Shown here: positions 2,545-13,359 of the stretch, one piece after another
How positions within the stretch are numbered: the stretch's first letter is position 1
Layout: every line of letters starts with the position of its first letter
Assembly: GCA_048886185.1 (NCBI GenBank)
Contig: JBHLKY010000012.1
Coordinates: 127,981 to 159,980, forward strand
Direction: 5' to 3'
Length of the DNA: 32,000 bases
Source: Candidatus Hermodarchaeota archaeon
Lineage (GTDB): Archaea > Asgardarchaeota > Heimdallarchaeia > Hodarchaeales > Hodarchaeaceae
Program-made: the position numbers and the translations under genes
The notes under the pieces: generated by a model
What the model was told of the DNA's origin: nothing
Seen by the model: the letters and a program-made list of their open reading frames with translations, nothing else
Database searches by the model: none

Positions 2545-4950
2545 TTAAGACATACGACTATATAGCATATCTGGTAGAGATCTACGCCAAGTTCTCCAAG
2601 AAATTAAACTAGTGGCCATGAACACACAGACACTAAGAATGAAGACTATGAAAAACCATAATTCAACGGGTACCACTGCTGGGATATACAAATCAGGAAG
2701 GATATACTCATAAGTTGGCTTTAACAGGACAATACTCAGAGGAACACCAATGAAAAATCCAAATATGCCATATATCAGGTTTTCTGTTAAGATAATTTTC
2801 AGGATTGTCCTCCGTTTTGCACCCATTGCCCTTAAGGCCAAGAATTCCATTTCACGCTCCATCATAGTAATTGACATACTAGAAAATGTAAATAAAATAA
2901 GAGTAGCTAAACCTAGGAACGCAACAAGTAGTAATAATTGCATGAACATACTTAATAATTCTATAATTGTATCTTTTGCCTCATTACTATCAATATAAAC
3001 ATAAGGTTTGTATTTTTCTTGTATAATTTGTTTAATCTCTAGTTTTTCAGTATTTGATATAATCTCATTAAATTCAAATACAAATGCAGTAACATTTTCC
3101 GCAATCCCAATTTGATGGACATCAGACACAGAATCACGGATTCCCTCAATAGTCCAAAAAATTGTATTCTCTGCTATTTCCCCTGTGATTCCTATGACTT
3201 CAACTGTTACAATAGACTCCAAATCAAAGGTTAAAGTGATCTCATCTCCTAAATCTAACTTTAAGTCCTTTGCTAGGTTATTACCTATAAGAATTTTCTT
3301 TTTAGTGAGCTCTTTTTCTCCAGCTATTACATTATAGTCTCTTAAAGACGAATTTTGATGAAAAGCTTGCAATGGAATTCGTTGATTATCAATCCAAACG
3401 GTTGTATACAAAAATCCTTCTACATCAGTTATTCCTGATACATTTTGATGAATCCACTTTTTAATCTCAGTTTCACTAGTAGGATTTTGTAAAAGAATTT
3501 TTGCGTCATATTTTTCATACAAAGAGTAATTTTCTTCTAAAGCATACACATAATCATAAAATACACTTGCAGAGATAACTAAAATGACCATGGATGCTGC
3601 AACAACCATTGCAGTCGAGAATGACCGTCTTTTATTCATAAAAACTGACCTGAGAGGAATCTTAGAGGTTAATCCTTTGAGAATTTTTAATGGTCTCAGT
3701 ATATGTTCTAACAATGGTTCACTTCCGAGCTCACTAGTTGAATATGAAGCCTTTAACGCCTCATGAGGAGTCAAACGTAAAACTGGGTATGTAGCTAATA
3801 TTGAAAATGTTAGAATTAATACTACTGCCAAAAGGGTGATAGAAATCCAGTTTAAGGGATTAGTAGATATTGTTACGGTAATTAAACCAAAAACACTAAC
3901 TCCAACATTTACTAGTGCAAAAGTTGTTATTACTGCTCCCAACCATCCAAAAATAATTCCAATAGCTCCGAGCATTAAACCAAAACTCGTATAATGGAAG
4001 AGTATTGTAATGTTTCTTGAACCTAATGCTCCATATAAGCCAATATGTGTCCGTTGGGCCATTATCAATTTACTTAATGAATTATATATCCCAATAGATC
4101 CAACTATCAAAGCAAAAAGACCAAAGACTAACCCAATTTTTTCCATTGCATCAGTTCGAAGCTCTAGCCAGTCTCGTTCCATAGATTCATCCCAATAAAT
4201 TACTTTTTGAATTATTTTTTCGCCTAAAATTGAAGAAATAGCTTGATCCGCCTTCTGATTTGCAGCATTTGTCCTTTCATGAGTTTTAACTAGGATTTCA
4301 TTGATCCCAGTTAGGTTGAATTTTTCCTGAAGTATATCAAGAGGCATATAAATTACACATAATTCTCCTAGGGTTATAACATTTGTTTGCTCGTCTACAA
4401 CAAAGATATAATCAGAATCTGCAACAAATCCACCTATTGATACATTTGCAATAGAATTTCCCAAAAAAATCGAAAGTTGGTCCTGTAATCTAGCCTGAAC
4501 TCCTACTAAGGTAACATTGCCAAAATGCTGTTCGACAAATACTTGATCATCTGATAATTGTTCATTACCAACTTTGACTCTTAATTTGTTTATTCGAGTT
4601 TTCTCAAAGTTAATGCCAATTAAGTATGCTTTATGGATTTTATTATTGAATTTTACTGTACAATACTCAAAAATTCGACCCTCCAGATCAGTAATTCCCG
4701 CAATTTCTTTCTCAGACTCAGATATTAGCGATGATAAATTATTTTCAGGAATATATTCTGATAATCGAATTCTAATGTCAGCATTATTAAGTTCTTTATT
4801 TGTAGCTTCTACTGATGCCATTGCGGAGTCTTTTAAATTCATTAATCCTAATCCCAAAGTAAGAGCGAGGAAAACTGTAAGAATTATCATGATAGAGCGG
4901 AATTTGTTAAATCGAATATCTCTAAAGATCTTCTTAGTTAAGATTTTCAA
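2545..4950 (-). CDS. FtsX/MacB-family (type VII) ABC transporter permease, duplicated architecture
   Basis: 801 aa; two repeats of TM + large extracytoplasmic domain + 3 TM; FtsX-like loops (QRTHIGLYGALG; EREMEFLALRAMGA); directly downstream of a LolD-type ATPase; TTG start with AGGTG upstream. Confidence 0.9.
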   Translation of the reverse strand: MKILTKKIFRDIRFNKFRSIMIILTVFLALTLGLGLMNLKDSAMASVEATNKELNNADIRIRLSEYIPENNLSSLISESEKEIAGITDLEGRIFEYCTVKFNNKIHKAYLIGINFEKTRINKLRVKVGNEQLSDDQVFVEQHFGNVTLVGVQARLQDQLSIFLGNSIANVSIGGFVADSDYIFVVDEQTNVITLGELCVIYMPLDILQEKFNLTGINEILVKTHERTNAANQKADQAISSILGEKIIQKVIYWDESMERDWLELRTDAMEKIGLVFGLFALIVGSIGIYNSLSKLIMAQRTHIGLYGALGSRNITILFHYTSFGLMLGAIGIIFGWLGAVITTFALVNVGVSVFGLITVTISTNPLNWISITLLAVVLILTFSILATYPVLRLTPHEALKASYSTSELGSEPLLEHILRPLKILKGLTSKIPLRSVFMNKRRSFSTAMVVAASMVILVISASVFYDYVYALEENYSLYEKYDAKILLQNPTSETEIKKWIHQNVSGITDVEGFLYTTVWIDNQRIPLQAFHQNSSLRDYNVIAGEKELTKKKILIGNNLAKDLKLDLGDEITLTFDLESIVTVEVIGITGEIAENTIFWTIEGIRDSVSDVHQIGIAENVTAFVFEFNEIISNTEKLEIKQIIQEKYKPYVYIDSNEAKDTIIELLSMFMQLLLLVAFLGLATLILFTFSSMSITMMEREMEFLALRAMGAKRRTILKIILTENLIYGIFGFFIGVPLSIVLLKPTYEYILPDLYIPAVVPVELWFFIVFILSVCVFMATSLISWRTWRRSLPDMLYSRMS

Positions 4951-4973
4951 TCACAGTACACCTTCAAACTGAT

Positions 4974-5672
4974 TTATTTTGAGTGATCTTCAACAGTTTC
5001 AATCTGTCCATCACGGAGATGAAACACACGTTCAGCTTTCTCTGTGATACTGATATCATGAGAAACTACAATATATGTTCCTCCAAACTTTTTATTAAGT
5101 TCTTTCATAAGACCAGCAATTTTCTGACCTGTAACAAAATCAAGATTTCCAGTAGGTTCATCTGCTACAATTATTTCGGGATTTTTCACCAAAGCTCGGG
5201 CAATAGCAACTCTCTGTTGTTCTCCCCCTGACAATTGGCTTGGAAAGCGATCCGTCTTATCACCCAGTCCCACTGCGTCTAGAATCTTACATGCACGTTC
5301 CTTAATATTTTTACGATCACCCTTAAATTCAAGTGCTAATCCAACATTTTCCCATGTTCTGAGAGAAGGAATAAGGTTAAAAAATTGAAATATCCAACCA
5401 ACCTTATTACGACGATATTCAGATAATCTCCCTCCACCCCAATCAGTTATTTTCTCCCCGTGGATCTCCACAGTACCTTTGGTTGGGGAGTCAATTCCAC
5501 CTATTTGGTTAAGTAAAGTTGTTTTTCCTGATCCTGATGGCCCAAGCACAACAACAAATTCACCTTCATATACTTCCATTGAAATACCGCGTAATGCATG
5601 AACTATATGATCACCTAAAGCGAATTCACGATGTACATCTGATAAAATTACCATGGGTTCTTTTAATGCCAT
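4974..5672 (-). CDS. LolD/MacB-type ABC ATP-binding protein
   Basis: [38 protein letters not shown]. Confidence 0.95.
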
Positions 5673-5911: not shown

Positions 5912-6766
5912 GTGGACTTGGTAGATTTATCATTTATCCAAATTTACCTTTTAAATATCTTATCTTCTTATTCTACAGGTGCAGTTCGATTTACGTTGCT
6001 CAATCAAATTAATGACGTTTTTTTTCAAGAAAAACCTTTACATCGATCGACTTTTTACAATAGCTTAAAAAGATTAAAAGAGAAAAATTTTGTATCATTT
6101 AAAGAAGATAGTAGAAGTGGGAAAACAAAAAGTGTCCAAATTACGCCATTAGGCAAGATTGCGACAAATATGATAACCCAAATGATGATTTTCACTATTT
6201 GGGATATTGGAACGCTATTACAAGAACTTGTCCCAGAAGTTATAGCTAAAACCGAAATGACACCCGTCCACTTGAGTCTTCTTATCCATTTTGACGAATT
6301 GTTAAATGTTGAACTATTTGATGAATTCTATTATCCTTACTCGGAAGAGCTTTATGTACTAGCAGATGACAATTATTTTGAAAGATACTTAAAGCGAGGT
6401 ATCACTAGGATTCACCAATCGAAATTTCAGAACAACTTGATTCGTGAACCAAATGATTTTTTTGATAACACTTTTTTAATTCGGTATCGAAAGACGAAAA
6501 AATTTGGAATTTCGGAAAAAGAGATGTTGCATGAAGCTTTAAGAGTGACAAAATCAAATGGAAAGTTGATAATTATAACTATTAGTGACATTCCTCGATC
6601 AGATCACTTTATACCAGATAGTTTTGGTCAATTTATTAATAATAATCCTTTCTTCTTCTCAATAAGTGAAGAAGAATTATTATCTGATCTGAAAGAAGAG
6701 GGTCTTCAGAAGATTAATATCTGGAACATTAAAGGAGTCTTGATTGTGTCCGCTAAAGTTCCTTAA
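5912..6766 (+). CDS. Winged-HTH (PadR/MarR-like) transcriptional regulator with a C-terminal methyltransferase-like domain
   Basis: N-terminus HRSTFYNSLKRLKEKNFV...VQITPLGK fits a wHTH recognition helix and wing; C-terminal half has FFDNTFL...MLHEALRVTKSNGKLII, typical of class I SAM-MTase strands 4-5. GTG start; divergent from the ABC operon. Confidence 0.65.
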   Translation: MDLVDLSFIQIYLLNILSSYSTGAVRFTLLNQINDVFFQEKPLHRSTFYNSLKRLKEKNFVSFKEDSRSGKTKSVQITPLGKIATNMITQMMIFTIWDIGTLLQELVPEVIAKTEMTPVHLSLLIHFDELLNVELFDEFYYPYSEELYVLADDNYFERYLKRGITRIHQSKFQNNLIREPNDFFDNTFLIRYRKTKKFGISEKEMLHEALRVTKSNGKLIIITISDIPRSDHFIPDSFGQFINNNPFFFSISEEELLSDLKEEGLQKINIWNIKGVLIVSAKVP

Positions 6767-6955
6767 AAAAGTATAGACCCTTAATTACCATTGGATATTT
6801 TGATCCACCAAAAAGAGGGGATTGTAGTGTACAACACTCAAGAGTGAGGTCATATAAGCCCAATTGATTTACCTAGTATCCTCTACTCTTTGAGAATTCT
6901 TATCAGAGGCAGGATTGTTAAGAACTTTTTAAGAGGAAAATAGTAAATTAGGAAC

Positions 6956-7222
6956 TCACTCGACTTTTGAAACTGCGAGGCGAATATCAGATTCTTTTAT
7001 GGTTTTTCGGCCTGAATGACCCGCAATCTCTACAGCATATTTAGCGATTTCCATTCCTCGGTCTGTTATAACCTGATTCAAACTTGCGATTGCATCAGAA
7101 GATACACGAAATGCTCCCGCATCTCTGATTAGCTTTTCAACACGTGCGCCAGCGAAAGTTGCTTTTCCAGCTGGTGCTTTCTTAGCTGGTGCTTTTTTAG
7201 CTGGTTCTTTCTTTTTTGGCAT
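6956..7222 (-). CDS. Archaeal (HMf-type) histone with a Lys/Ala/Pro-rich N-terminal tail
   Basis: Fold residues match HMfB-type histones: LIRDAGAFRVSSDA, IAGHSGRKTIKESDIRLAV (conserved AGA, R-V, H, RKT and D). About 21 extra N-terminal residues, MPKKKEPAKKAPAKKAPAGKA. Confidence 0.95.
   Translation of the reverse strand: MPKKKEPAKKAPAKKAPAGKATFAGARVEKLIRDAGAFRVSSDAIASLNQVITDRGMEIAKYAVEIAGHSGRKTIKESDIRLAVSKVE
7169..7213. repeat. 3 x 15-bp tandem repeat encoding the histone tail (KKEPA KKAPA KKAPA)
   Basis: Plus-strand units agctggtgctttctt / agctggtgctttttt / agctggttctttctt. Confidence 0.9.
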
Positions 7223-7285
7223 TTTAAATCACAATTCCCAATAAGTTACTTAAATAATAAAACTCGTGCAGAAATTCAAACTTCC

Positions 7286-7300
7286 TTTATAAAGCTTTAT
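7286..7300 (-). promoter_or_regulatory. Candidate TATA box for the histone gene
   Basis: TTTATAAA at 7286-7293, about 65 nt upstream of the histone ATG, overlapping a perfect 12-bp palindrome ATAAAGCTTTAT (7289-7300). Position and motif only. Confidence 0.35.
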
Positions 7301-7445
7301 ACAATCCTAGTACACTAGAAGAAAAAGAGGAAAGATAAGTACTCTCCTTATCTCCATTTTTATCATGATAATGGTTAAATCATGTTTTTTTACACTTTTA
7401 GAGCAATAATCCCACAATGATCTTTAAAAGCCCTAAATATTTCTG

Positions 7446-8717
7446 TTAGAAGGGTTCCATTGTGTAAGGGGGCTCCTCTGTTCTGAAAAGTTTATTAAGT
7501 AATCCAAGATGACTTATATCAGTTATCTGTATTAAACCATATTCATATAGCCTTTTGAGACTTATCGCCCCCATAATTAGACTAGAAAAATGTTCAACAT
7601 TAAGTGATATTTTAACCACTTTCTCTTCATTAGCTGAAATCAACGTAGGTTTTCCTTCTTGAAAATGTACTAACATCTCTCCATCATTTATAGGAAGAAA
7701 ACTGTCTCTAACCGCTAATTTTAGCTTAATGGTCTGATCTCCAAATCTATGATCGGAGAGAAGAGTGAAGAACTTCTCAGTATTTATAACGCGATACATT
7801 ACCCCAACGCCTTGGATATTACTTTCTTGAAAAATATGGAAAATATTCTCGCTGCCACGGCTGCGTGGTTCATTCAAGAAATGGTGAAAATAATGATCAT
7901 GTGTGTTATAAATAATTCTGTGAATTTGATCTTGCTGTGTGGCAAGAAACGTTAGAAGGCTGCGAAAAGCATTCGGTGATTCATAAATAAATTCTATAAT
8001 GTGAATATTGTGTTGTAACCAACTCCCACCTTCCACCCTTCTCATCCGAAAAGCTAAATAACCAGCAAGATCACCATTTTCCCAGTATCCAATGGTTTTC
8101 ATTCCCTCAAGTATTTGTTTAAAGATCCTACTATCTTCTGTTCGTAAAATCATACCATGAGTTGTCGATGTATATCTTTGATAGCATGTAAAAACAGATT
8201 TTAGATCGGACAAGGATAAGTACGATATATTTGATTTTTTTGATTTTTGTAACGCTTTTGGTTCAAAGCAGTATTGATTCATTTTATTTCCTAATCCATA
8301 TCCCATATTGGCATAGAAATCTGGTCGAAATGGATAGAGGCAAGTTAAACAATATCCTCGCTTATAATAATGGTTATGAGCAAATATCATCAGATCCTTG
8401 GCTACATGTTCTTTTTTATATAGAAGGCCGACGCAAACTTCTCCTATCCCACCGCATTTAACAACATTCTTACCATATAAATTCATTTTAAAATCATAAA
8501 GAATCATTCCCCCCACTAATTTGTCTTGTTGAAAACACCCGTAAATATTCACAGCAGTATCTTCATTATTAACGCATATCCATTCTTTTTTTTTCTCTCT
8601 CTTCATGTCCTCAGTAAAATTAGGTGGTACCTGACCAGGATATGCTTCAGCCCAAATATCTAGAAAAGCGTCAAAATCTGTGTCTATAAGCTTTCTAATA
8701 GTTCTATTCTCTTTCAT
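7446..8717 (-). CDS. Eis-family GNAT N-acetyltransferase (tandem GNAT + SCP2-like C-terminal domain)
   Basis: 423 aa; GGIGEVCV...KKEHVAKDLM (motif A variant), LYPFRPDFYANMGYG, C-terminal LNVEHFSSLIMGAISLKRLYEYG resembling the Eis SCP2 domain. Confidence 0.85.
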   Translation of the reverse strand: MKENRTIRKLIDTDFDAFLDIWAEAYPGQVPPNFTEDMKREKKKEWICVNNEDTAVNIYGCFQQDKLVGGMILYDFKMNLYGKNVVKCGGIGEVCVGLLYKKEHVAKDLMIFAHNHYYKRGYCLTCLYPFRPDFYANMGYGLGNKMNQYCFEPKALQKSKKSNISYLSLSDLKSVFTCYQRYTSTTHGMILRTEDSRIFKQILEGMKTIGYWENGDLAGYLAFRMRRVEGGSWLQHNIHIIEFIYESPNAFRSLLTFLATQQDQIHRIIYNTHDHYFHHFLNEPRSRGSENIFHIFQESNIQGVGVMYRVINTEKFFTLLSDHRFGDQTIKLKLAVRDSFLPINDGEMLVHFQEGKPTLISANEEKVVKISLNVEHFSSLIMGAISLKRLYEYGLIQITDISHLGLLNKLFRTEEPPYTMEPF

Positions 8718-8750
8718 ATGAATTTTCCAATCCTAAAAACTCAATAATAC

Positions 8751-9365
8751 TCAATCATAATTAGGTATTGCATAATAGTTACTGTTTTTGTAAATTGTTA
8801 CACCACTTTCCGTTATCATTGTAATAGGATCGCTTAATGCTGCAGATAAGGTGATAGCTAGAGTTCTTCCTTTTTGTTCTTTCTGAAAATGATGAACATG
8901 TCCAGCCACTAGAATCTTAGGATTAAAAAGATCAACAAGCCTTCTTACAGACTTATTGCCACAATGAGGTATCATTTTCGCATGAAATGGATCACCACAT
9001 TTGTCTGCAAGCCCAAATGCTGGTTCATGGGAAATTAAAACATCTAAATCCTTTGGAATCGTTGTAGGTTCACGTAAATAATCAATTCCGAAGAAATTAA
9101 ACCCTGTAAGGTCTTTAAGCCAGTCCAAATGATCACCAAGCCAATAAAAGTTTTTAATATTCTCAAGAACCCTCAGAGATTTTGTGCCCCAGAGTTCTTT
9201 ATTTCCCTTTATACTAAAGAAAGGTAAAGGGAATTCGAAACTTCGTCCAGGATATTGGTGGTAATTGAAGATATCTCCTGTACAAACACAAATATCAGCT
9301 TTCTCTGCATATTGAAATAATCGGGTGAAATTACCTTCAAAATCGGCACTAAGAAGGATTTTCAT
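8751..9365 (-). CDS. Calcineurin-like metallophosphoesterase
   Basis: Ordered motifs ADFEG, TGDI, KGNKE, ISHEP, AGHVH; motifs I and III deviate from the D-x-H and GNH[D/E] consensus. Confidence 0.82.
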   Translation of the reverse strand: MKILLSADFEGNFTRLFQYAEKADICVCTGDIFNYHQYPGRSFEFPLPFFSIKGNKELWGTKSLRVLENIKNFYWLGDHLDWLKDLTGFNFFGIDYLREPTTIPKDLDVLISHEPAFGLADKCGDPFHAKMIPHCGNKSVRRLVDLFNPKILVAGHVHHFQKEQKGRTLAITLSAALSDPITMITESGVTIYKNSNYYAIPNYD

Positions 9366-9377
9366 TAGAATACTCCC

Positions 9378-9974
9378 TTAAGAAAATTGATTAGATATGC
9401 AATCGTAACAAAGAGTAATTTTCGTTTTATTGGGTCTTCTAATTATCTCAGCGCATTCTGTACAATAAAGATTTTGACAACTAGAACATTTCATTATTCC
9501 AGGTTCGTTTCCACATCGTTGACAATCATACCCAGGGGATCCACTTCTAAGTCTTAATGCAAGTGATTCTAAGATTTTTTTAATAGTTTGGGGATTTTGT
9601 ATCAAATCTGAATCCGTCCAGAGTCTTTCAGTCAACTTATGGAAATCTTCTCCAGATAGTTCTGATGGAAGAAACTCTTGGAGTAATGTGGTTTCAACAA
9701 TATCAAGATCAATCTTCCAAGTCGCTTTTGGATAAATAAAGACAAATTTACGACCCTTGATTTTAATATCTAATAATCCAATTAACCCCGCTTCTTCTAG
9801 GGCAGTTAAGTGGAAATCTAAACCTGCTCTTTGCAGATCAAAACGATTAAGTAACTCATTTTTAATTAAGAATTTTTCTTCTAGAATGTGATCAAAAATC
9901 TCTAATCGTTTTTTATTAGAAATAGCTTTCAATATCGTATCAATAGAGGGATCGTTTTCCATTCTAATACACAT
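9378..9974 (-). CDS. ArsR-family wHTH protein fused to a C-terminal 8-Cys (B-box-like) zinc finger
   Basis: ILKAISNKKRLEIFDHI...GLDFHLTALEEAGLI is ArsR-like; C-terminus has four CxxC pairs (CQRC, CSSC, CTEC, CYDC). True start may be Met5. Confidence 0.78.
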   Translation of the reverse strand: MCIRMENDPSIDTILKAISNKKRLEIFDHILEEKFLIKNELLNRFDLQRAGLDFHLTALEEAGLIGLLDIKIKGRKFVFIYPKATWKIDLDIVETTLLQEFLPSELSGEDFHKLTERLWTDSDLIQNPQTIKKILESLALRLRSGSPGYDCQRCGNEPGIMKCSSCQNLYCTECAEIIRRPNKTKITLCYDCISNQFS

Positions 9975-10216
9975 TAATCTAGGTCTTCTGGCATTAATTC
10001 TTTACTCAATTAACACTGAGGTACAATTATGAGAAGTGTTTTCTCTTGAGAGATTGGAATCTACTAAGGTAAATTTAAGTTTACGGTGAATTGTTACATG
10101 AGTTAACTTTATTTAACTCTTTTTTTGAAAATACTAAATTTTATTTTTTCCTCAAAACAATTAAGGGGGAAAATTATGGTATTAAATGGAAAGAATTACA
10201 TCATTCGGTGATATCC

Positions 10217-10909
10217 ATGAGTGACACAATTGTCGAAATTCATTCTCTGAAGAAAGACTATCAAAGTGGTGAAATAATTGTAAAAGCGCTCACAGGAATT
10301 GATTTAACAATTCAAAAAGGAGATTTTATAGTTATTCTTGGCCCCAGTGGTTCAGGAAAGACCACATTACTGAATTTAATTGGGGGGATTGATAGCTCCA
10401 CTAGTGGTTCAATACGTGTTAATAGTATAGAAATTACTAATTTACGGGAACGATCATTGACTGATTATCGTAAAGAGGACGTTGGTTTTATTTTTCAATT
10501 TTATAATCTTATTCCAACCCTCACTGCAGTTGAAAATGTAGAACTCGCAGCCCGATTGAAGTTTTCTAAAAAAGCTGCATATGAACAATCCATGAAGATG
10601 CTTGAAGCTGTTGAAATGACAGATAAAGCACGTAGCTTTCCCTCCCAACTTTCAGGAGGAGAACAACAGCGGATAGCTATTGCACGGGCCTTAGTGAAAA
10701 AGCCAAAGATTGTCCTTGCAGATGAACCAACTGGAAATCTGGACACTGTTACAGGAGAAAAAGTACTTCATTTGATGTTACAAATTTGTAAAAATGAAGG
10801 AACAACATTCCTCATCGTAACCCATAATGTAGCAATCTCAAAACTTGCAGATTATATTATTTATTTGAAAGATGGCAAAGTTTTTGGTACCTCGAAAGGC
10901 CAATTTTAG
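10217..10909 (+). CDS. LolD/MacB-type ABC ATP-binding protein
   Basis: [38 protein letters not shown]. Start moved from 10091 to the in-frame ATG at 10217 ([13 protein letters not shown]), which has GGTGA at 10207-10211. Confidence 0.93.
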
Positions 10910-10926
10910 CTTGGGGTGGAGTAAAC

Positions 10927-13359
10927 ATGCTATTCTTAATAAAAATTCTACGAGATTTACGAAAGAACAAGTCTCGTTCCTTACCTATAATTATCCTCAT
11001 TTGTGTTAGTCAAATTGCCAGCATTCTCTATATTGAGGTAGGCGTGATGATCGATGAGAGTTGGCAACAATATTTTCGGGAAACAAATGTAGGTGATGTT
11101 TGGATCGATACCGTTTCGATTTCTACAACGGTTTACAATAATTCAGTGACTAGTTACTGGAGGGATACATATTCCATCAGTGCAATTCAACCACGATTAT
11201 ATTTCAAAGGACAAATCACTATAAATAAGGAGAAAATACCTGTTGACATCATATCCTTACCTGCAGAGAAACCAGCAGAAGTCAACCGTATCATCACCAC
11301 TGATAAAAGTTATTTTGCAGACCATTCGAAGATTAATAATGGTATCTACATTGAGCAATCTCATTTAAAATTCTACAATCTGAAAACATTTGACGGAATT
11401 ACTCTTACTATTAACACTGGCTTGACAGAGAAAACTCTTAATTTGACAATATTAGGAGGCGCTTATAGTCCTGAATATCCTATAAAAATGGGTGAGGGGG
11501 GAAGTATCCAACAGTTTGAATTCTCTGCGACATTTGCTCAATACCTAACAATGAGTGTTTTTTTAAGAACGGATTATCTGCAGGATGAATTATATCAAGG
11601 TGAAGAAGTGTATAACCAAATTTGTATTTCTTTTGATGATAATATCAGAAAAGATACTTTTATTCGACATTTACAAACAGATCAATCTCTTATGTATCGA
11701 TATACTATTGATGTAAGAGAATATCCTTCCTTAATTGAAGACATGGTGTTTATCATGATTGGGGTTGGATTTGGGGTAACAATTTTTTTCTTGATTATCT
11801 CTATGTTTTTGACTTATACCATAGTTAATCGCTTTATTGACGAGCAAAGACCTCAATTAGGAGTAATGAAATCTTTAGGGTATTCTAATAGGTATATTCT
11901 AACGAGGAGTTTATTTTATGGCTTAATTCTTGGGTTGATAGGATCTACCTCGGGGAATTTCTTCGGTATCTGCATAGGAATTTTATTAGGAGATTTGTTG
12001 TTAAATTCATGGCTTTCCTTTCCGTACATTGCAGTATCATTACCCTTCACACAGTCCCTTGTACTCGTTTTTATCACCATTGTCTGTTCGACAATAGCAT
12101 GTTATATTTCCGCTCGTCGCATTCTAAAGATTTCACCTCGGGCTGCAATCATGCCTGCTTTTGTTGAAAGAAAAATAAGTACATTTGTTGTGGAAGATTT
12201 CATTCAAAAAATATTTAGAATTAGGTTATCTGTTCTAAGTAAATATTCCATTCGTAATGTTTTTACGAATCCCAAAAGAGCTATAACAACTATTGGTTCA
12301 TTACTTATGGCTATAGCACTTGTTGGTGGAGTTCTTACAATCGTTACAAGTGTCTTTAGTGGTGGATCATTAATGTTTCAATCTGAAAATTGGGATGCTC
12401 AAATCACTCTTTCTTACCCTCAGAACTTTGCTGATGTTCAATCTGATATTCTCATGCATTTTGATGATCACCAAACGATGATAATGGAACCTTTATTAGT
12501 GGATACTGCAAGGATTAGGAACCCTACTGATAAGGATACTTTCTGGAGGAAGGTCACATTCACAGCTCTTCCAATGAATCCAAATCTTAAACTATTAGAA
12601 AATACTGGTGTAGGATTCCAGAGTAATACTTCAGCTATCATTTCTCTTGATGTTGCTAAGCAGTTGGAACTAAATATAAGTGGAGAATATATATTATCAG
12701 GACGAAATGGCACACAGAAGACAATTATTATCCAAGTAATTCTCCCCCCACATCATGTCTCAAGTTTTTACATTCCAATGTCATTAGGAAACTTTCTTTC
12801 ATTTGGAAATGACTCAATAGAAATGGTTAATGGCGTTTTTCTCTCAAAACCAGCCCTATCAAAAACTGACATTGACTCCTTGAGCACTGATTTCGCTGTA
12901 ATCCTAAAATCAGATCTAATCAAAGAAACAGAATCTTGGTATCTGCAAATGAGCTCCATTTTGTTTGGATTACTCTTTTTAGTTCTCATAATTGCTGGAA
13001 TAATCATCTATAGTATAGCATCTATAAGTATTGCAGAACGAAAAGATGATTTTTCAATAATGAAAGCAGTTGGTATTCAAAATCGTAGTATATATCTCTG
13101 GAGTGTTCTTGAAGTGTTGATTTATTCACTGATTGCGAGCAGTGGCTATCTTATCGGTTTTTTCATCTCAGTATGGTATATGGATATTTTACAGCAATTA
13201 ATGAATTCTCCCCAAGGAAGATTTGAGTTATCACTCTTCCATTATCTTGTTTCTTTCTTGTTTGGTCTAGTGGCATCCCTATTTGGGCAGTTCTTCGCAT
13301 TACGTTATATACTAAAACAGAGAATTGCTATTGTTACTAAAGAGAAGATGTTTGGTTAA
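10927..13359 (+). CDS. FtsX/MacB-family (type VII) ABC transporter permease, duplicated architecture
   Basis: 810 aa, 8-TM duplicated layout, loops EQRPQLGVMKSLGY and ERKDDFSIMKAVG; 17 bp downstream of its ATPase. Confidence 0.9.
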   Translation: MLFLIKILRDLRKNKSRSLPIIILICVSQIASILYIEVGVMIDESWQQYFRETNVGDVWIDTVSISTTVYNNSVTSYWRDTYSISAIQPRLYFKGQITINKEKIPVDIISLPAEKPAEVNRIITTDKSYFADHSKINNGIYIEQSHLKFYNLKTFDGITLTINTGLTEKTLNLTILGGAYSPEYPIKMGEGGSIQQFEFSATFAQYLTMSVFLRTDYLQDELYQGEEVYNQICISFDDNIRKDTFIRHLQTDQSLMYRYTIDVREYPSLIEDMVFIMIGVGFGVTIFFLIISMFLTYTIVNRFIDEQRPQLGVMKSLGYSNRYILTRSLFYGLILGLIGSTSGNFFGICIGILLGDLLLNSWLSFPYIAVSLPFTQSLVLVFITIVCSTIACYISARRILKISPRAAIMPAFVERKISTFVVEDFIQKIFRIRLSVLSKYSIRNVFTNPKRAITTIGSLLMAIALVGGVLTIVTSVFSGGSLMFQSENWDAQITLSYPQNFADVQSDILMHFDDHQTMIMEPLLVDTARIRNPTDKDTFWRKVTFTALPMNPNLKLLENTGVGFQSNTSAIISLDVAKQLELNISGEYILSGRNGTQKTIIIQVILPPHHVSSFYIPMSLGNFLSFGNDSIEMVNGVFLSKPALSKTDIDSLSTDFAVILKSDLIKETESWYLQMSSILFGLLFLVLIIAGIIIYSIASISIAERKDDFSIMKAVGIQNRSIYLWSVLEVLIYSLIASSGYLIGFFISVWYMDILQQLMNSPQGRFELSLFHYLVSFLFGLVASLFGQFFALRYILKQRIAIVTKEKMFG

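What the first reader, a model, noticed from the sequence alone, without database searches (positions are those of the whole stretch)
6956..9974. Candidate archaeal histone-modification locus: Eis-type lysine acetyltransferase directly upstream of a Lys-tailed histone
Seen: four co-oriented genes, ArsR/Zn-finger regulator - metallophosphoesterase - Eis-type GNAT - tailed histone, with gaps of 12, 33 and 223 bp. The tail is made of PAKK-type repeats. Established: Mycobacterium tuberculosis Eis acetylates lysines of the nucleoid protein HU/HupB, whose C-terminal tail is also PAKK-rich. Inference: this could be a writer (acetyltransferase), possibly with a phospho-eraser, acting on an Asgard histone tail, which would be a non-eukaryotic route to histone-tail modification. 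The 223-bp gap and a possible separate TATA box mean the adjacency may be coincidental.
Basis: partly seen in the sequence, partly recalled or inferred. Interest (0 to 1): 0.8.

Follow-up and report, generated by a model that had tools for sequence, protein, structure and literature searches.

The report
Eis-type acetyltransferase beside tailed histone
In one genus of Hodarchaeales archaea, a bacterial-type Eis-family acetyltransferase gene often sits next to the gene for a lysine-tailed histone, which makes it a testable but unproven candidate histone-tail writer; the four-gene "locus" is not one unit.

Summary
Four co-oriented minus-strand genes are present: an ArsR/B-box regulator, a metallophosphoesterase, a three-domain Eis-family GNAT, and a Lys-tailed histone, with gaps of 12, 33 and 223 bp. 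The genome is a Hodarchaeales MAG.

The four genes are not one module:
- The histone has its own TATA box, invariant in seven genomes.
- The regulator travels with the divergent ABC exporter.
- The phosphoesterase is mostly unlinked and lacks two canonical histidines.

Only the Eis–histone proximity survives comparison. Eis lies within 2.3 kb of the tailed histone in about eight arrangement types, with Eis identity down to 42%, once convergent and three times with inserted genes. The pair is unlinked in at least five other lineages. Two genomes have the tailed histone but no Eis orthologue, and three have Eis but no tailed histone.

This Eis family was found in only one of 85 Asgard genera sampled. 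Its closest outside relatives are in bacteria and Bathyarchaeia. A 2026 preprint already shows Asgard tail modification and a different GNAT writer.

My estimates: about 0.5 for an inherited neighbourhood with a generalist enzyme, and about 0.33 for a genuine genus-specific tail writer. No biochemical or expression evidence was obtainable.

The parts
6956..7222 (-). Lys-tailed archaeal histone (88 aa): a tail of about 22-24 residues followed by a canonical histone fold.
   Evidence: NF043032 84.8 bits and PF00808 5e-13. It belongs to an orthologous group of 15 tailed histones in the genus, scoring 141-161 bits against 123 bits or less for paralogues.
7160..7210 (-). 15-bp tandem repeat, 3.4 copies, encoding the PAKK-type tail repeats.
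   Evidence: Tandem Repeats Finder, score 74, 86% matches.
7285..7293 (-). TATA box (TTTATAAAG) of the histone gene, about 70 nt upstream of the ATG.
   Evidence: Invariant in 7 of 7 genomes. The surrounding intergenic region varies in sequence and in length, from about 120 to 480 bp.
7318..7330 (-). Oligo-T run downstream of the Eis stop codon, a possible archaeal terminator.
   Evidence: Read directly from the sequence. It is not conserved in the three genomes with a 120-bp spacer, so this is inference only.
7446..8717 (-). Eis-family acetyltransferase (423 aa): GNAT, GNAT and SCP2-like domains.
   Evidence: PF13527 2.7e-28, PF17668 4e-10 and PF13530 4.3e-14. Near-full-length matches to the solved Eis-like chains 3N7Z, 2OZG and 2I00. 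The FY..MGYG motif and a C-terminal Phe are conserved family-wide.
8751..9365 (-). Atypical metallophosphoesterase (204 aa). Probably co-transcribed with Eis here, but not linked to it in most relatives.
   Evidence: PF00149 30.2 bits. Motifs read DxE, GDxxN, GNKE and GHxH. Present in 17 of 21 genus members, mostly on other contigs.
9378..9974 (-). ArsR-like HTH plus B-box-like zinc-finger regulator (198 aa). It belongs with the divergent ABC exporter, not with the histone.
   Evidence: HTH_20, NF033788 and ANCHR-like B-box hits, all below cut-off. The pair regulator plus ABC exporter is conserved in G006, G009 and G019 without Eis or the histone.
10091..13359 (+). ABC ATPase plus 810-aa permease, divergent from the regulator (context, not part of the histone story).
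   Evidence: ORFs. Orthologues sit next to the regulator in every locus examined.

Best explanation
The four genes are three separate units that share a neighbourhood by descent.

(1) The ArsR/B-box regulator goes with the divergently transcribed ABC exporter.

(2) The atypical phosphoesterase and the Eis-family enzyme are accessory genes. Eis is a three-domain, acetyl-CoA-dependent N-acetyltransferase of a family that this Hodarchaeales genus shares with Bathyarchaeia and anaerobic bacteria, probably through horizontal transfer. It most likely acts, as in those histone-less hosts, as a broad-specificity acetylase of cationic amines or many proteins (inferred).

(3) The Lys-tailed histone is an independently transcribed chromatin protein. 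Its promoter is shown. Its high abundance is inferred from the cultured Hodarchaeales strain HC1.

On this reading, the frequent Eis-histone proximity is an ancestral gene order that has decayed only partly. It is not a dedicated writer-substrate system.
For: - The histone has its own invariant TATA box in a spacer that is otherwise variable, 120-480 bp long.
- In one lineage Eis is convergent with the histone. In three lineages one or two unrelated genes lie between them. Co-transcription is therefore not what is conserved.
- Orthologues at 35-44% identity occur in Bathyarchaeia, Theionarchaea, Brevibacillus, Vallitalea, Cytobacillus, Sporomusa, Chloroflexota and others. They share the HKKE[HK], LYPFRPDFY..MGYG and C-terminal Phe motifs. 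That is as close as some within-genus orthologues (40-44%).
- None of the bacterial or Bathyarchaeia loci has a histone nearby. Several have MFS transporters instead.
- Four genomes carry both genes on different contigs with at least 6 kb of flank. In the G021/P0137 lineage a radical-SAM gene follows Eis.
- G011 and G013 have the tailed histone but only distant Eis paralogues. G001, G016 and G012 have Eis but no tailed histone.
- Co-occurrence gives Fisher p = 0.054 over all 22 genomes and p of about 0.5 for genomes at least 85% complete, without any correction for relatedness.
- Regional synteny persists anyway. ArsB, the Rab-like GTPase, GlnRS and the window's 28735-29787 gene recur near the histone in other lineages. 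Neutral retention of proximity is therefore not negligible.
- 378 other Asgard genomes lack this Eis family, and that sample spans 84 other genera. Lokiarchaeia are reported to carry tailed histones.
- In Hod-HC1 and Loki the tails were mostly methylated, and tail acetylation was hardly detectable.
Against: - Eis is the most persistent neighbour of the tailed histone. It lies within 2.3 kb in about eight arrangement types spread over at least three deep branches of the Hodarchaeales Eis tree.
- In three divergent loci (L080, L082, L086), Eis and the histone are the only genes with clear orthologues in the 32-kb window; L086 adds only weak ABC-ATPase paralogue hits.
- Where Eis is not adjacent (clade B), a different GNAT, FR47-like and 292 aa long, is the histone's divergent neighbour. 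That same GNAT family sits directly upstream of Eis in another lineage.
- The chance of a GNAT neighbour is only about 0.027 per gene.
- Mycobacterial Eis does acetylate a Lys-rich nucleoid protein. Asgard GNATs can acetylate histone tails in vitro.
- The preprint's authors attribute the low in-vivo tail acetylation to active SIR2 erasers. This genome has three SIR2 and three HDAC-type genes.
Confidence: 0.5

Rival explanations
1. Genus-specific writer-substrate pair. The Eis-family enzyme acetylates lysines of the histone's N-terminal tail, possibly among other cationic substrates, using acetyl-CoA. Acetylation neutralises charge and loosens tail-DNA contacts, as mycobacterial Eis does to HU. 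The two genes are transcribed separately but are kept close by selection. SIR2 or HDAC genes elsewhere in the genome would erase the mark. Every step beyond gene proximity is inferred.
For: - Proximity is retained through rearrangements that replaced both flanks: A-type, G009, G019/P0003, P0023, P0149 and P0011, with Eis identity from 100% down to 42%.
- The linked state occurs in several deep Eis clades.
- There is a second GNAT association: FR47-like GNAT with the tailed histone in clade B, and FR47-like GNAT with Eis in L090.
- Among nine histone-fold loci in this genome, only the tailed histone has a GNAT neighbour.
- Both genes were found only in this genus among the Asgard genomes searched.
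- There is precedent in Eis-MtHU and in LoHAT2-HLoB.
- Candidate erasers are present.
Against: - The histone has its own promoter, and one lineage is convergent.
- The pair is unlinked in clade B and in G021/P0137. Other tailed-histone contexts (P0030, P0024, P0013) show no Eis within about 5 kb.
- There are tailed histones without an Eis orthologue and Eis without a tailed histone.
- The family's motifs are identical in bacteria that have no histones.
- Tail acetylation was nearly undetectable in the cultured Hodarchaeales strain.
- Retention is only about 2-fold above that of a presumably unrelated neighbour, ArsB.
Confidence: 0.33
2. Cationic-xenobiotic defence island. Eis acetylates and inactivates aminoglycoside-like or cationic peptide compounds. 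It works alongside the two MacB/FtsX-type ABC exporters and the PadR-like and ArsR-like regulators of the same 12-kb region. The histone is an unrelated passenger.
For: - Two ABC ATPase/permease pairs and two small regulators flank the genes. This whole block is syntenic in clade A.
- Eis orthologues sit next to MFS transporters in two Bacillota lineages and in Hodarchaeales clade C.
- An APH-type kinase gene lies 2 kb from Eis in L089.
- Solved relatives are Eis-like chains. Aminoglycoside acetylation by such enzymes is from recall.
Against: - Outside clade A, Eis is not near the ABC exporters or the regulators.
- Bacterial contexts are otherwise heterogeneous: PFOR, TrmO, CheW and nucleotidyltransferase.
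- No substrate information exists.
Confidence: 0.1
3. A four-gene operon that acts as a histone-modification cassette: regulator, phospho-eraser, acetyl-writer and substrate, co-transcribed.
For: The genes are co-oriented, and the first three are separated by gaps of only 12 and 33 bp.
Against: - A conserved internal TATA box precedes the histone.
- A 2-kb insertion lies between the regulator and the phosphoesterase in three close relatives, and all four genes are dispersed in G009 and G019.
- The phosphoesterase lacks two canonical histidines.
- The tail has one Thr and no Ser or Tyr.
- No phosphorylation was seen on archaeal histones.
Confidence: 0.03

Closest known systems
Mycobacterium tuberculosis Eis acting on the nucleoid protein MtHU (HupB)
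   Same: Same three-domain Eis architecture (GNAT, GNAT, SCP2-like) and a C-terminal Phe. The candidate substrate is an abundant DNA-packaging protein with a Lys/Ala/Pro-rich tail. Acetylation of MtHU by Eis lowers DNA binding (Ghosh et al. 2016, as cited in PMC6135046).
   Different: The sequence relationship is only distant: NCBIfam Eis equivalog scores are 20-45 bits against cut-offs of 259-788, and the M. smegmatis Eis chain scores E = 8e-5. The tail here is N-terminal on a histone fold, not C-terminal on HU. No activity data exist. The canonical R/Q-x-x-G-x-G/A motif reads K-K-E-H-V-A.
Eis-like GNATs of Bacillus anthracis (3N7Z), Anabaena variabilis (2OZG) and Enterococcus faecalis (2I00, 2HV2)
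   Same: These are the best solved relatives, aligned over nearly the full length (E = 9e-21 to 1e-13), with the FY..G[YW] catalytic-Tyr motif conserved.
   Different: Those proteins come from bacteria without histones, and their physiological substrates are unknown. The Hodarchaeales protein belongs to a distinct subfamily, also found in Bathyarchaeia and Bacillota, marked by HKKE[HK].
LoHAT2 / HLoB.2 of Ca. Lokiarchaeum ossiferum (bioRxiv 10.64898/2026.07.02.735847)
   Same: An Asgard GNAT paired with a Lys-tailed Asgard histone. Tail acetylation was shown in vitro, and SIR2 erasers were shown.
   Different: The preprint compares LoHAT2's predicted cleft with human NatD and picked it by an AlphaFold screen, not by gene context. 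The preprint never mentions Eis, synteny or operons. This Eis family was not found in any of 378 other Asgard genomes searched.
HMpB tailed histones of Ca. Margulisarchaeum peptidiphilum HC1, and the Hodarchaeales tailed paralogues noted in PMC10919886
   Same: A Hodarchaeales histone with a disordered Lys-rich N-terminal tail, one of several paralogues. The own genome has about nine histone-fold loci, including a doublet and a fusion protein.
   Different: The tail sequence differs from the published HMpB.1 peptide.

Membership tests
Eis-family acetyltransferase (Pfam Acetyltransf_9 + Acetyltransf_17 + SCP2_2) | Three-domain architecture: N-terminal GNAT, central GNAT, C-terminal SCP2-like domain. 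| tested here: met
   All three Pfam domains are above gathering cut-off, in order, covering residues 6-418.
Eis-family acetyltransferase | Full-length homology to solved Eis-like structures. | tested here: met
   Profile hits to 3N7Z (E = 9e-21), 2OZG (6e-17) and 2I00 (3e-15, residues 4-408 against 12-398).
Eis-family acetyltransferase | Catalytic Tyr in the (F/I)Y..(F/M)GY motif, and a C-terminal residue whose carboxylate reaches the active site (these roles are from recall of the M. tuberculosis Eis structure). | tested here: met
   Y135 aligns with the Tyr of FYRKYGW and LYRKAGY in 3N7Z and 2OZG. The last residue is Phe in all 19 family members aligned.
Eis-family acetyltransferase | GNAT motif A pyrophosphate loop, R/Q-x-x-G-x-G/A. 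| tested here: inconclusive
   It reads K-K-E-H-V-A, with His in the Gly position. This is invariant in the Hodarchaeales orthologues of A1, and the whole subfamily carries [KR][KR][EM][HKN] at the same place. It is therefore a subfamily trait whose effect on CoA binding is unknown.
Mycobacterial Eis proper (NCBIfam equivalogs NF002368 / NF002364) | Score above the curated equivalog cut-off. | tested here: not met
   28.6 and 19.6 bits against cut-offs of 576 and 701. It is Eis-like, not an Eis equivalog.
Eis-family acetyltransferase | Acetyl transfer to aminoglycosides or to Lys of a nucleoid protein; hexameric assembly. | not testable with these tools
   No biochemical tool is available.
Archaeal nucleosomal histone with N-terminal tail (HLoB/HMpB type) | A single histone fold above the family cut-off, plus a disordered Lys-rich N-terminal extension. 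| tested here: met
   NF043032 84.8 bits against 50. The fold spans residues 26-84, preceded by 8 Lys in 22 residues. Fifteen orthologues have tails that vary widely in length but keep a near-invariant M-x-K-K-K start.
Single operon / co-transcribed cassette | No internal promoter; gene order and adjacency kept together in relatives. | tested here: not met
   There is an invariant TATA box before the histone. The regulator and phosphoesterase are dispersed in G009 and G019, and insertions occur within clade A.
Functionally coupled writer-substrate gene pair | Proximity conserved across lineages in which surrounding synteny is lost. | tested here: inconclusive
   Kept within 2.3 kb in about eight arrangement types. 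Lost in at least five lineages. The excess over a control neighbour (ArsB) is only about 2-fold.
Functionally coupled writer-substrate gene pair | Phyletic co-occurrence. | tested here: inconclusive
   Counts are 13 both, 3 Eis only, 2 tail only, 4 neither. Fisher p = 0.054 for all genomes and about 0.5 for genomes at least 85% complete, not corrected for phylogeny. Both genes were found only in this genus among the genomes sampled.
Calcineurin-like metallophosphoesterase | Pfam score above cut-off, and the canonical metal and catalytic motifs DxH, GDxxDR, GNH[DE] and GHxH. | tested here: not met
   PF00149 scores 30.2 against 21.5, but the motifs read DxE, GDxxN, GNKE and GHxH, invariant in six orthologues. 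The fold is probably right; a canonical active site is not.
ArsR/SmtB metalloregulator | Score above the curated cut-off. | tested here: not met
   NF033788 scores 29.5 against 55, and HTH_20 scores 22.6 against 27. It is a winged-helix HTH of ArsR type only in a loose sense, with a B-box-like zinc finger.

The most novel reading that the evidence does not exclude
A horizontally acquired Eis-family acetyltransferase was recruited in one Hodarchaeales genus as a dedicated writer for the Lys-rich tail of a genus-specific histone, possibly together with a second, FR47-like GNAT. The genes have been kept side by side through repeated local rearrangement. That would be an independent, non-eukaryotic invention of histone-tail acetylation in the archaeal order closest to eukaryotes. 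It would parallel mycobacterial Eis-HU and give the first gene-context handle on a Hodarchaeales writer.
Probability: 0.33. Interest if true: 0.8.

Novelty: new member of a known kind. Interest (0 to 1): 0.5.

Why it matters
How histone-tail modification arose is an open question in eukaryogenesis, and Hodarchaeales are the closest known archaeal relatives of eukaryotes. A 2026 preprint shows that Asgard tails are modified and that one Loki GNAT can acetylate them, but it reports no enzyme assays with Hodarchaeales proteins and did not use gene context. The recurrent Eis-tailed-histone neighbourhood gives a concrete, cheap experiment: one recombinant enzyme, one tail peptide and mass spectrometry.

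If the result is positive, it would show that tail writers were recruited more than once from different GNAT families, here from a bacterial-type Eis. It would also link archaeal chromatin to the Eis-HU system of mycobacteria.

If the result is negative, the locus is an ordinary case of inherited gene order next to an already described kind of histone.

Tried and rejected
- **Complex prediction.** Complex prediction on Eis (alignment A1) with the tailed histone (A3) returned 'no answer' (score 0.00, controls not run). This is not evidence either way.
- **Expression.** No RNA holder was listed for 6800-10000 or 6900-7800. Only sediment and estuary DNA runs were listed, four of them possibly the source sample.
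- **Phosphoesterase structure search.** A PDB sequence search with the phosphoesterase profile found nothing at E up to 0.01.
- **G021 contig join.** I tested whether the G021 Eis contig and histone contig abut. The ends do not overlap, and a coding gene runs off the Eis contig. G021 is therefore counted as not adjacent or undetermined.
- **Paralogue outgroup.** Rooting the first Eis tree with the own-genome paralogue gave a long branch of 5.8 and an unresolved tree. I rebuilt the tree without it.
- **Co-occurrence statistics.** The result was borderline and vanished once incomplete genomes were dropped.
- **Third GNAT association.** The 182-aa GNAT upstream of the R-rich-tailed histone in G014 is not conserved. 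The orthologous histone P0033 has HSP20 there, so I give it little weight.
- **Net charge of Eis.** Values are pI 8.0 here and 5.7-9.8 across the family. This is uninformative about substrate.
- **Supplement search.** A search of the preprint's supplements for Eis, PF13527 or Acetyltransf_9 found nothing relevant.
- **Not attempted.**
  - A structure prediction of Eis, because the fold is already clear from sequence.
  - A genome-wide neighbour-retention permutation, because only the own genome could be laid in the Python box.

Full report
**Observation**

The window carries four co-oriented minus-strand ORFs at 9378-9974, 8751-9365, 7446-8717 and 6956-7222.

- The last ORF is an archaeal histone (NF043032, 84.8 bits against a cut-off of 50; PF00808, 5e-13). 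The fold occupies residues 26-84, behind an N-terminal extension with 8 Lys.
- The PAKK-type repeats of the tail are encoded by 3.4 copies of a 15-bp unit at 7160-7210.
- The 423-aa protein has the complete Eis architecture: Acetyltransf_9, Acetyltransf_17 and SCP2_2, all above cut-off.
- The 204-aa protein hits Metallophos.
- The 198-aa protein combines a weak ArsR-type HTH with a B-box-like Cys cluster.
- Relatives' records are titled Candidatus Hodarchaeota, and B3_Heim is among them, so the taxon guess was right.

**What the Eis-type protein is**

A profile of ten orthologues matches solved Eis-like chains over nearly the full length: 3N7Z, 2OZG, 2I00 and 2HV2. Mycobacterial Eis matches only distantly. 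The NCBIfam Eis equivalog cut-offs are missed by a wide margin. The protein is therefore Eis-like, not Eis proper.

The Tyr of the FY..MGYG motif and a terminal Phe are conserved. The usual R/Q-x-x-G-x-G/A loop reads K-K-E-H-V-A. All of these traits are shared with orthologues from Bathyarchaeia and from many bacteria.

Those outside orthologues are 35-44% identical, as close as some orthologues within the genus. They include Brevibacillus, Vallitalea, Cytobacillus, Sporomusa, Theionarchaea, Chloroflexota and Zixibacteria. Among 400 Asgard genomes from 85 genera, the family was found only in the window's own genus, in 15 of 21 other members plus G000. Trees place most Hodarchaeales sequences together, next to or interleaved with Bathyarchaeia. 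One Hodarchaeales sequence (P0157) groups with bacteria. The simplest reading is horizontal acquisition of a generalist enzyme.

**Transcription units**

I aligned the Eis-histone spacer from seven genomes. It varies from about 120 to 480 bp and is poorly conserved, except for an invariant TTTATAAAG about 70 nt before the histone ATG (window 7285-7293) and a GTGAT-like ribosome-binding site. The histone therefore has its own promoter. [quoted passage not shown] The 12- and 33-bp gaps suggest that the other three genes may be co-transcribed in this genome, but that order is not stable (see the regulator and phosphoesterase section).

**Linkage inside the genus (22 species genomes)**

The tailed histone forms a clean orthologous group: 141-161 bits against 123 or less for paralogues. 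It is present in 15 genomes and in no other genus of the class searched. The Eis orthologue is present in 16 genomes.

- Eis lies directly upstream of the tailed histone in G000, G003, G008, G009, G010, G014 and G017. It lies about 1 kb upstream in G019.
- In the first group, except G009, the whole 12-kb block is syntenic, so those genomes add little.
- In G009 and G019 both flanks differ, yet the pair persists.
- In G002, G004, G018 and G020 both genes exist but lie on different contigs with at least 6 kb of flank.
- In G021 another gene follows Eis.
- G011 and G013 have the tailed histone but only distant Eis paralogues.
- G001, G016 and G012 have Eis but no long-tailed histone.
- Co-occurrence is 13 both, 3 Eis only, 2 tail only, 4 neither. 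Fisher p is 0.054, falling to about 0.5 when incomplete genomes are dropped, with no correction for relatedness.

**Linkage in further lineages from metagenomes**

Looking up diverse tailed histones and Eis orthologues gave more arrangements.

| Query | Eis identity | Arrangement |
|---|---|---|
| P0003 | 47% | Eis, small ORF, histone |
| P0023 | 48% | Eis, FAD-oxidoreductase, Zn-ribbon, histone |
| P0149 | 46% | Eis, Rab-like GTPase, 92-aa tailed histone |
| P0011 | 42% | histone and Eis convergent, 138 bp apart |
| P0030, P0024, P0013 | not applicable | no Eis within about 5 kb of the tailed histone |
| P0137, P0146, P0157 | 61%, 49%, 44% | no histone within 4 kb of Eis |

In L080, L082 and L086, Eis and the histone are the only genes with clear orthologues in the 32-kb window; L086 adds only weak ABC-ATPase paralogue hits. 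On the Eis tree, linked members sit in at least three deep Hodarchaeales branches. Proximity is therefore probably ancestral, kept in about four deep lineages and lost in about five.

The control is imperfect. ArsB recurs near the histone in two deep lineages. The Rab-like GTPase, GlnRS and the window's 28735-29787 gene also recur nearby. Regional synteny alone thus explains part of the signal. I estimate the excess retention at about 2-fold.

**Other GNATs**

The own genome has about 60 GNAT-domain genes, so a GNAT neighbour is expected with p of about 0.027 per gene. None of the other eight histone-fold loci has one closer than 3.3 kb.

- In the clade where Eis is unlinked (G002, G004, G013, G018, G020), the tailed histone is divergently adjacent to a different GNAT, FR47-like and 292 aa long.
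- In another lineage a 47%-identical member of that GNAT family sits directly upstream of Eis.
- A third case, a 182-aa GNAT upstream of an R-rich-tailed histone in G014, is not conserved in the orthologous contexts.

These pairwise adjacencies among tailed histone, Eis and FR47-like GNAT are suggestive, but I found them post hoc.

**The regulator and the phosphoesterase do not belong**

The ArsR/B-box gene is always next to the divergent ABC ATPase/permease pair. This holds in G006, G009 and G019, where neither Eis nor the histone follows it. In G011 it lies directly upstream of the tailed histone without Eis or the phosphoesterase.

The phosphoesterase is present in 17 of 21 genus members, including genomes without Eis, and is usually on another contig. 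Three close relatives have a 2-kb insertion between it and the regulator. Its motifs read DxE, GDxxN, GNKE and GHxH, so two canonical histidines are missing. The tail offers a single Thr, and the preprint found no phosphorylation on archaeal histones. There is no basis for a 'phospho-eraser'.

**Literature**

- Eis-dependent acetylation of MtHU, with loss of DNA binding, is established (Ghosh et al. 2016, as cited in PMC6135046).
- Tailed histones of Hodarchaeales were already noted in PMC10919886, which used synteny to define paralogues but never mentions acetyltransferases.
- bioRxiv 10.64898/2026.07.02.735847 (July 2026) shows that Loki and Hod-HC1 tailed histones are abundant and modified. 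It shows that the GNAT LoHAT2 acetylates a Loki tail in vitro and that SIR2 enzymes erase the mark. Tail acetylation was hardly detectable in vivo, which the authors attribute to active deacetylation.
- That preprint does not mention Eis, synteny or operons, and its held supplements hold no Eis-type domain.
- The own genome has three SIR2-type and three HDAC-type genes.

**Verdict**

There is no four-gene cassette and no phospho-eraser.

There is a recurrent, genus-restricted Eis-tailed-histone neighbourhood. It is somewhat more persistent than its surroundings and is echoed by a second GNAT. Against a dedicated writer stand five points:
- separate transcription;
- incomplete linkage and co-occurrence;
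- a family identical in its motifs in histone-less bacteria;
- absence of the family from the other Asgard genomes sampled;
- scarce tail acetylation in vivo.

I put about 0.5 on an inherited neighbourhood with a generalist enzyme. I put about 0.33 on a real writer-substrate pair, about 0.1 on a xenobiotic-defence role with the exporters, and about 0.03 on the operon model. The components are known kinds. The gene-pair association appears unreported in the papers I could search, and one enzyme assay would test it.

Noticed in passing
L029:6792-7670 (+), next to the histone at L029:5998-6261 (-); the same layout in L031-L034: In the B3_Heim-type clade (G002, G004, G013, G018, G020) the Lys-tailed histone is divergently adjacent to a 292-aa FR47-like GNAT, with a Pirin gene downstream. 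Elsewhere in the genus this GNAT is unlinked, and it was not found in G000.
   Followed up: partly
L090:2917-3786 (+) and L090:4001-5260 (+): A 47%-identical member of the same FR47-like GNAT family lies directly upstream of an Eis orthologue. On the tree, that Eis groups with bacterial sequences.
   Followed up: partly
L035:4775-5044 (-) and L035:5723-6271 (-): G014 has a second tailed histone with an Arg-rich tail and a 182-aa GNAT upstream. Orthologous histones (P0033) have HSP20 there instead, and ribosomal protein L10e lies downstream in both.
   Followed up: partly
window 9378-13359: The ArsR-like/B-box regulator and the divergent ABC ATPase plus 810-aa permease form the truly conserved unit of this region. 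A second ABC pair (2545-5672) and a PadR-like gene (5912-6766) lie on the other side.
   Followed up: partly
window 8751-9365: This metallophosphoesterase-fold protein has invariant DxE and GNKE in place of DxH and GNH[DE]. It has no PDB sequence relative and could be an atypical or non-catalytic member.
   Followed up: partly
G000:C8:157388-158245 and G000:C8:160987-161175; G000:C4:71528-72061 and C4:72310-72558: An HDAC-type deacetylase gene lies about 2.7 kb from a divergent histone variant. A SIR2 gene lies about 250 bp from a GNAT gene.
   Followed up: no
G000:C4:4209-4661; G000:C5:119177-120283; G000:C9:176547-176777: The own genome also encodes a histone doublet (150-aa frame), a histone fold fused to a long C-terminal region (368-aa frame) and a short-tailed histone. 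This matches the paralogue diversity described for Hodarchaeales.
   Followed up: no
L089:5594-6163: A Rab/Arf-like GTPase, 55% identical to the window's 13386-13964 gene, sits between Eis and a 92-aa tailed histone. A relative of the window's giant surface protein lies nearby. This shows regional synteny with local shuffling.
   Followed up: no
L064:3728-5020, L069:4483-5739, L045:4486-5883: Eis orthologues lie next to MFS transporters in two Bacillota lineages and in the Hodarchaeales clade without tailed histones (G001, G016).
   Followed up: no
L076:5304-6668 (-): In G006 the gene downstream of the ArsR/B-box regulator is a 454-aa protein that, by eye only, looks like a RuBisCO large-subunit-type protein. 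It was not checked against Pfam.
   Followed up: no
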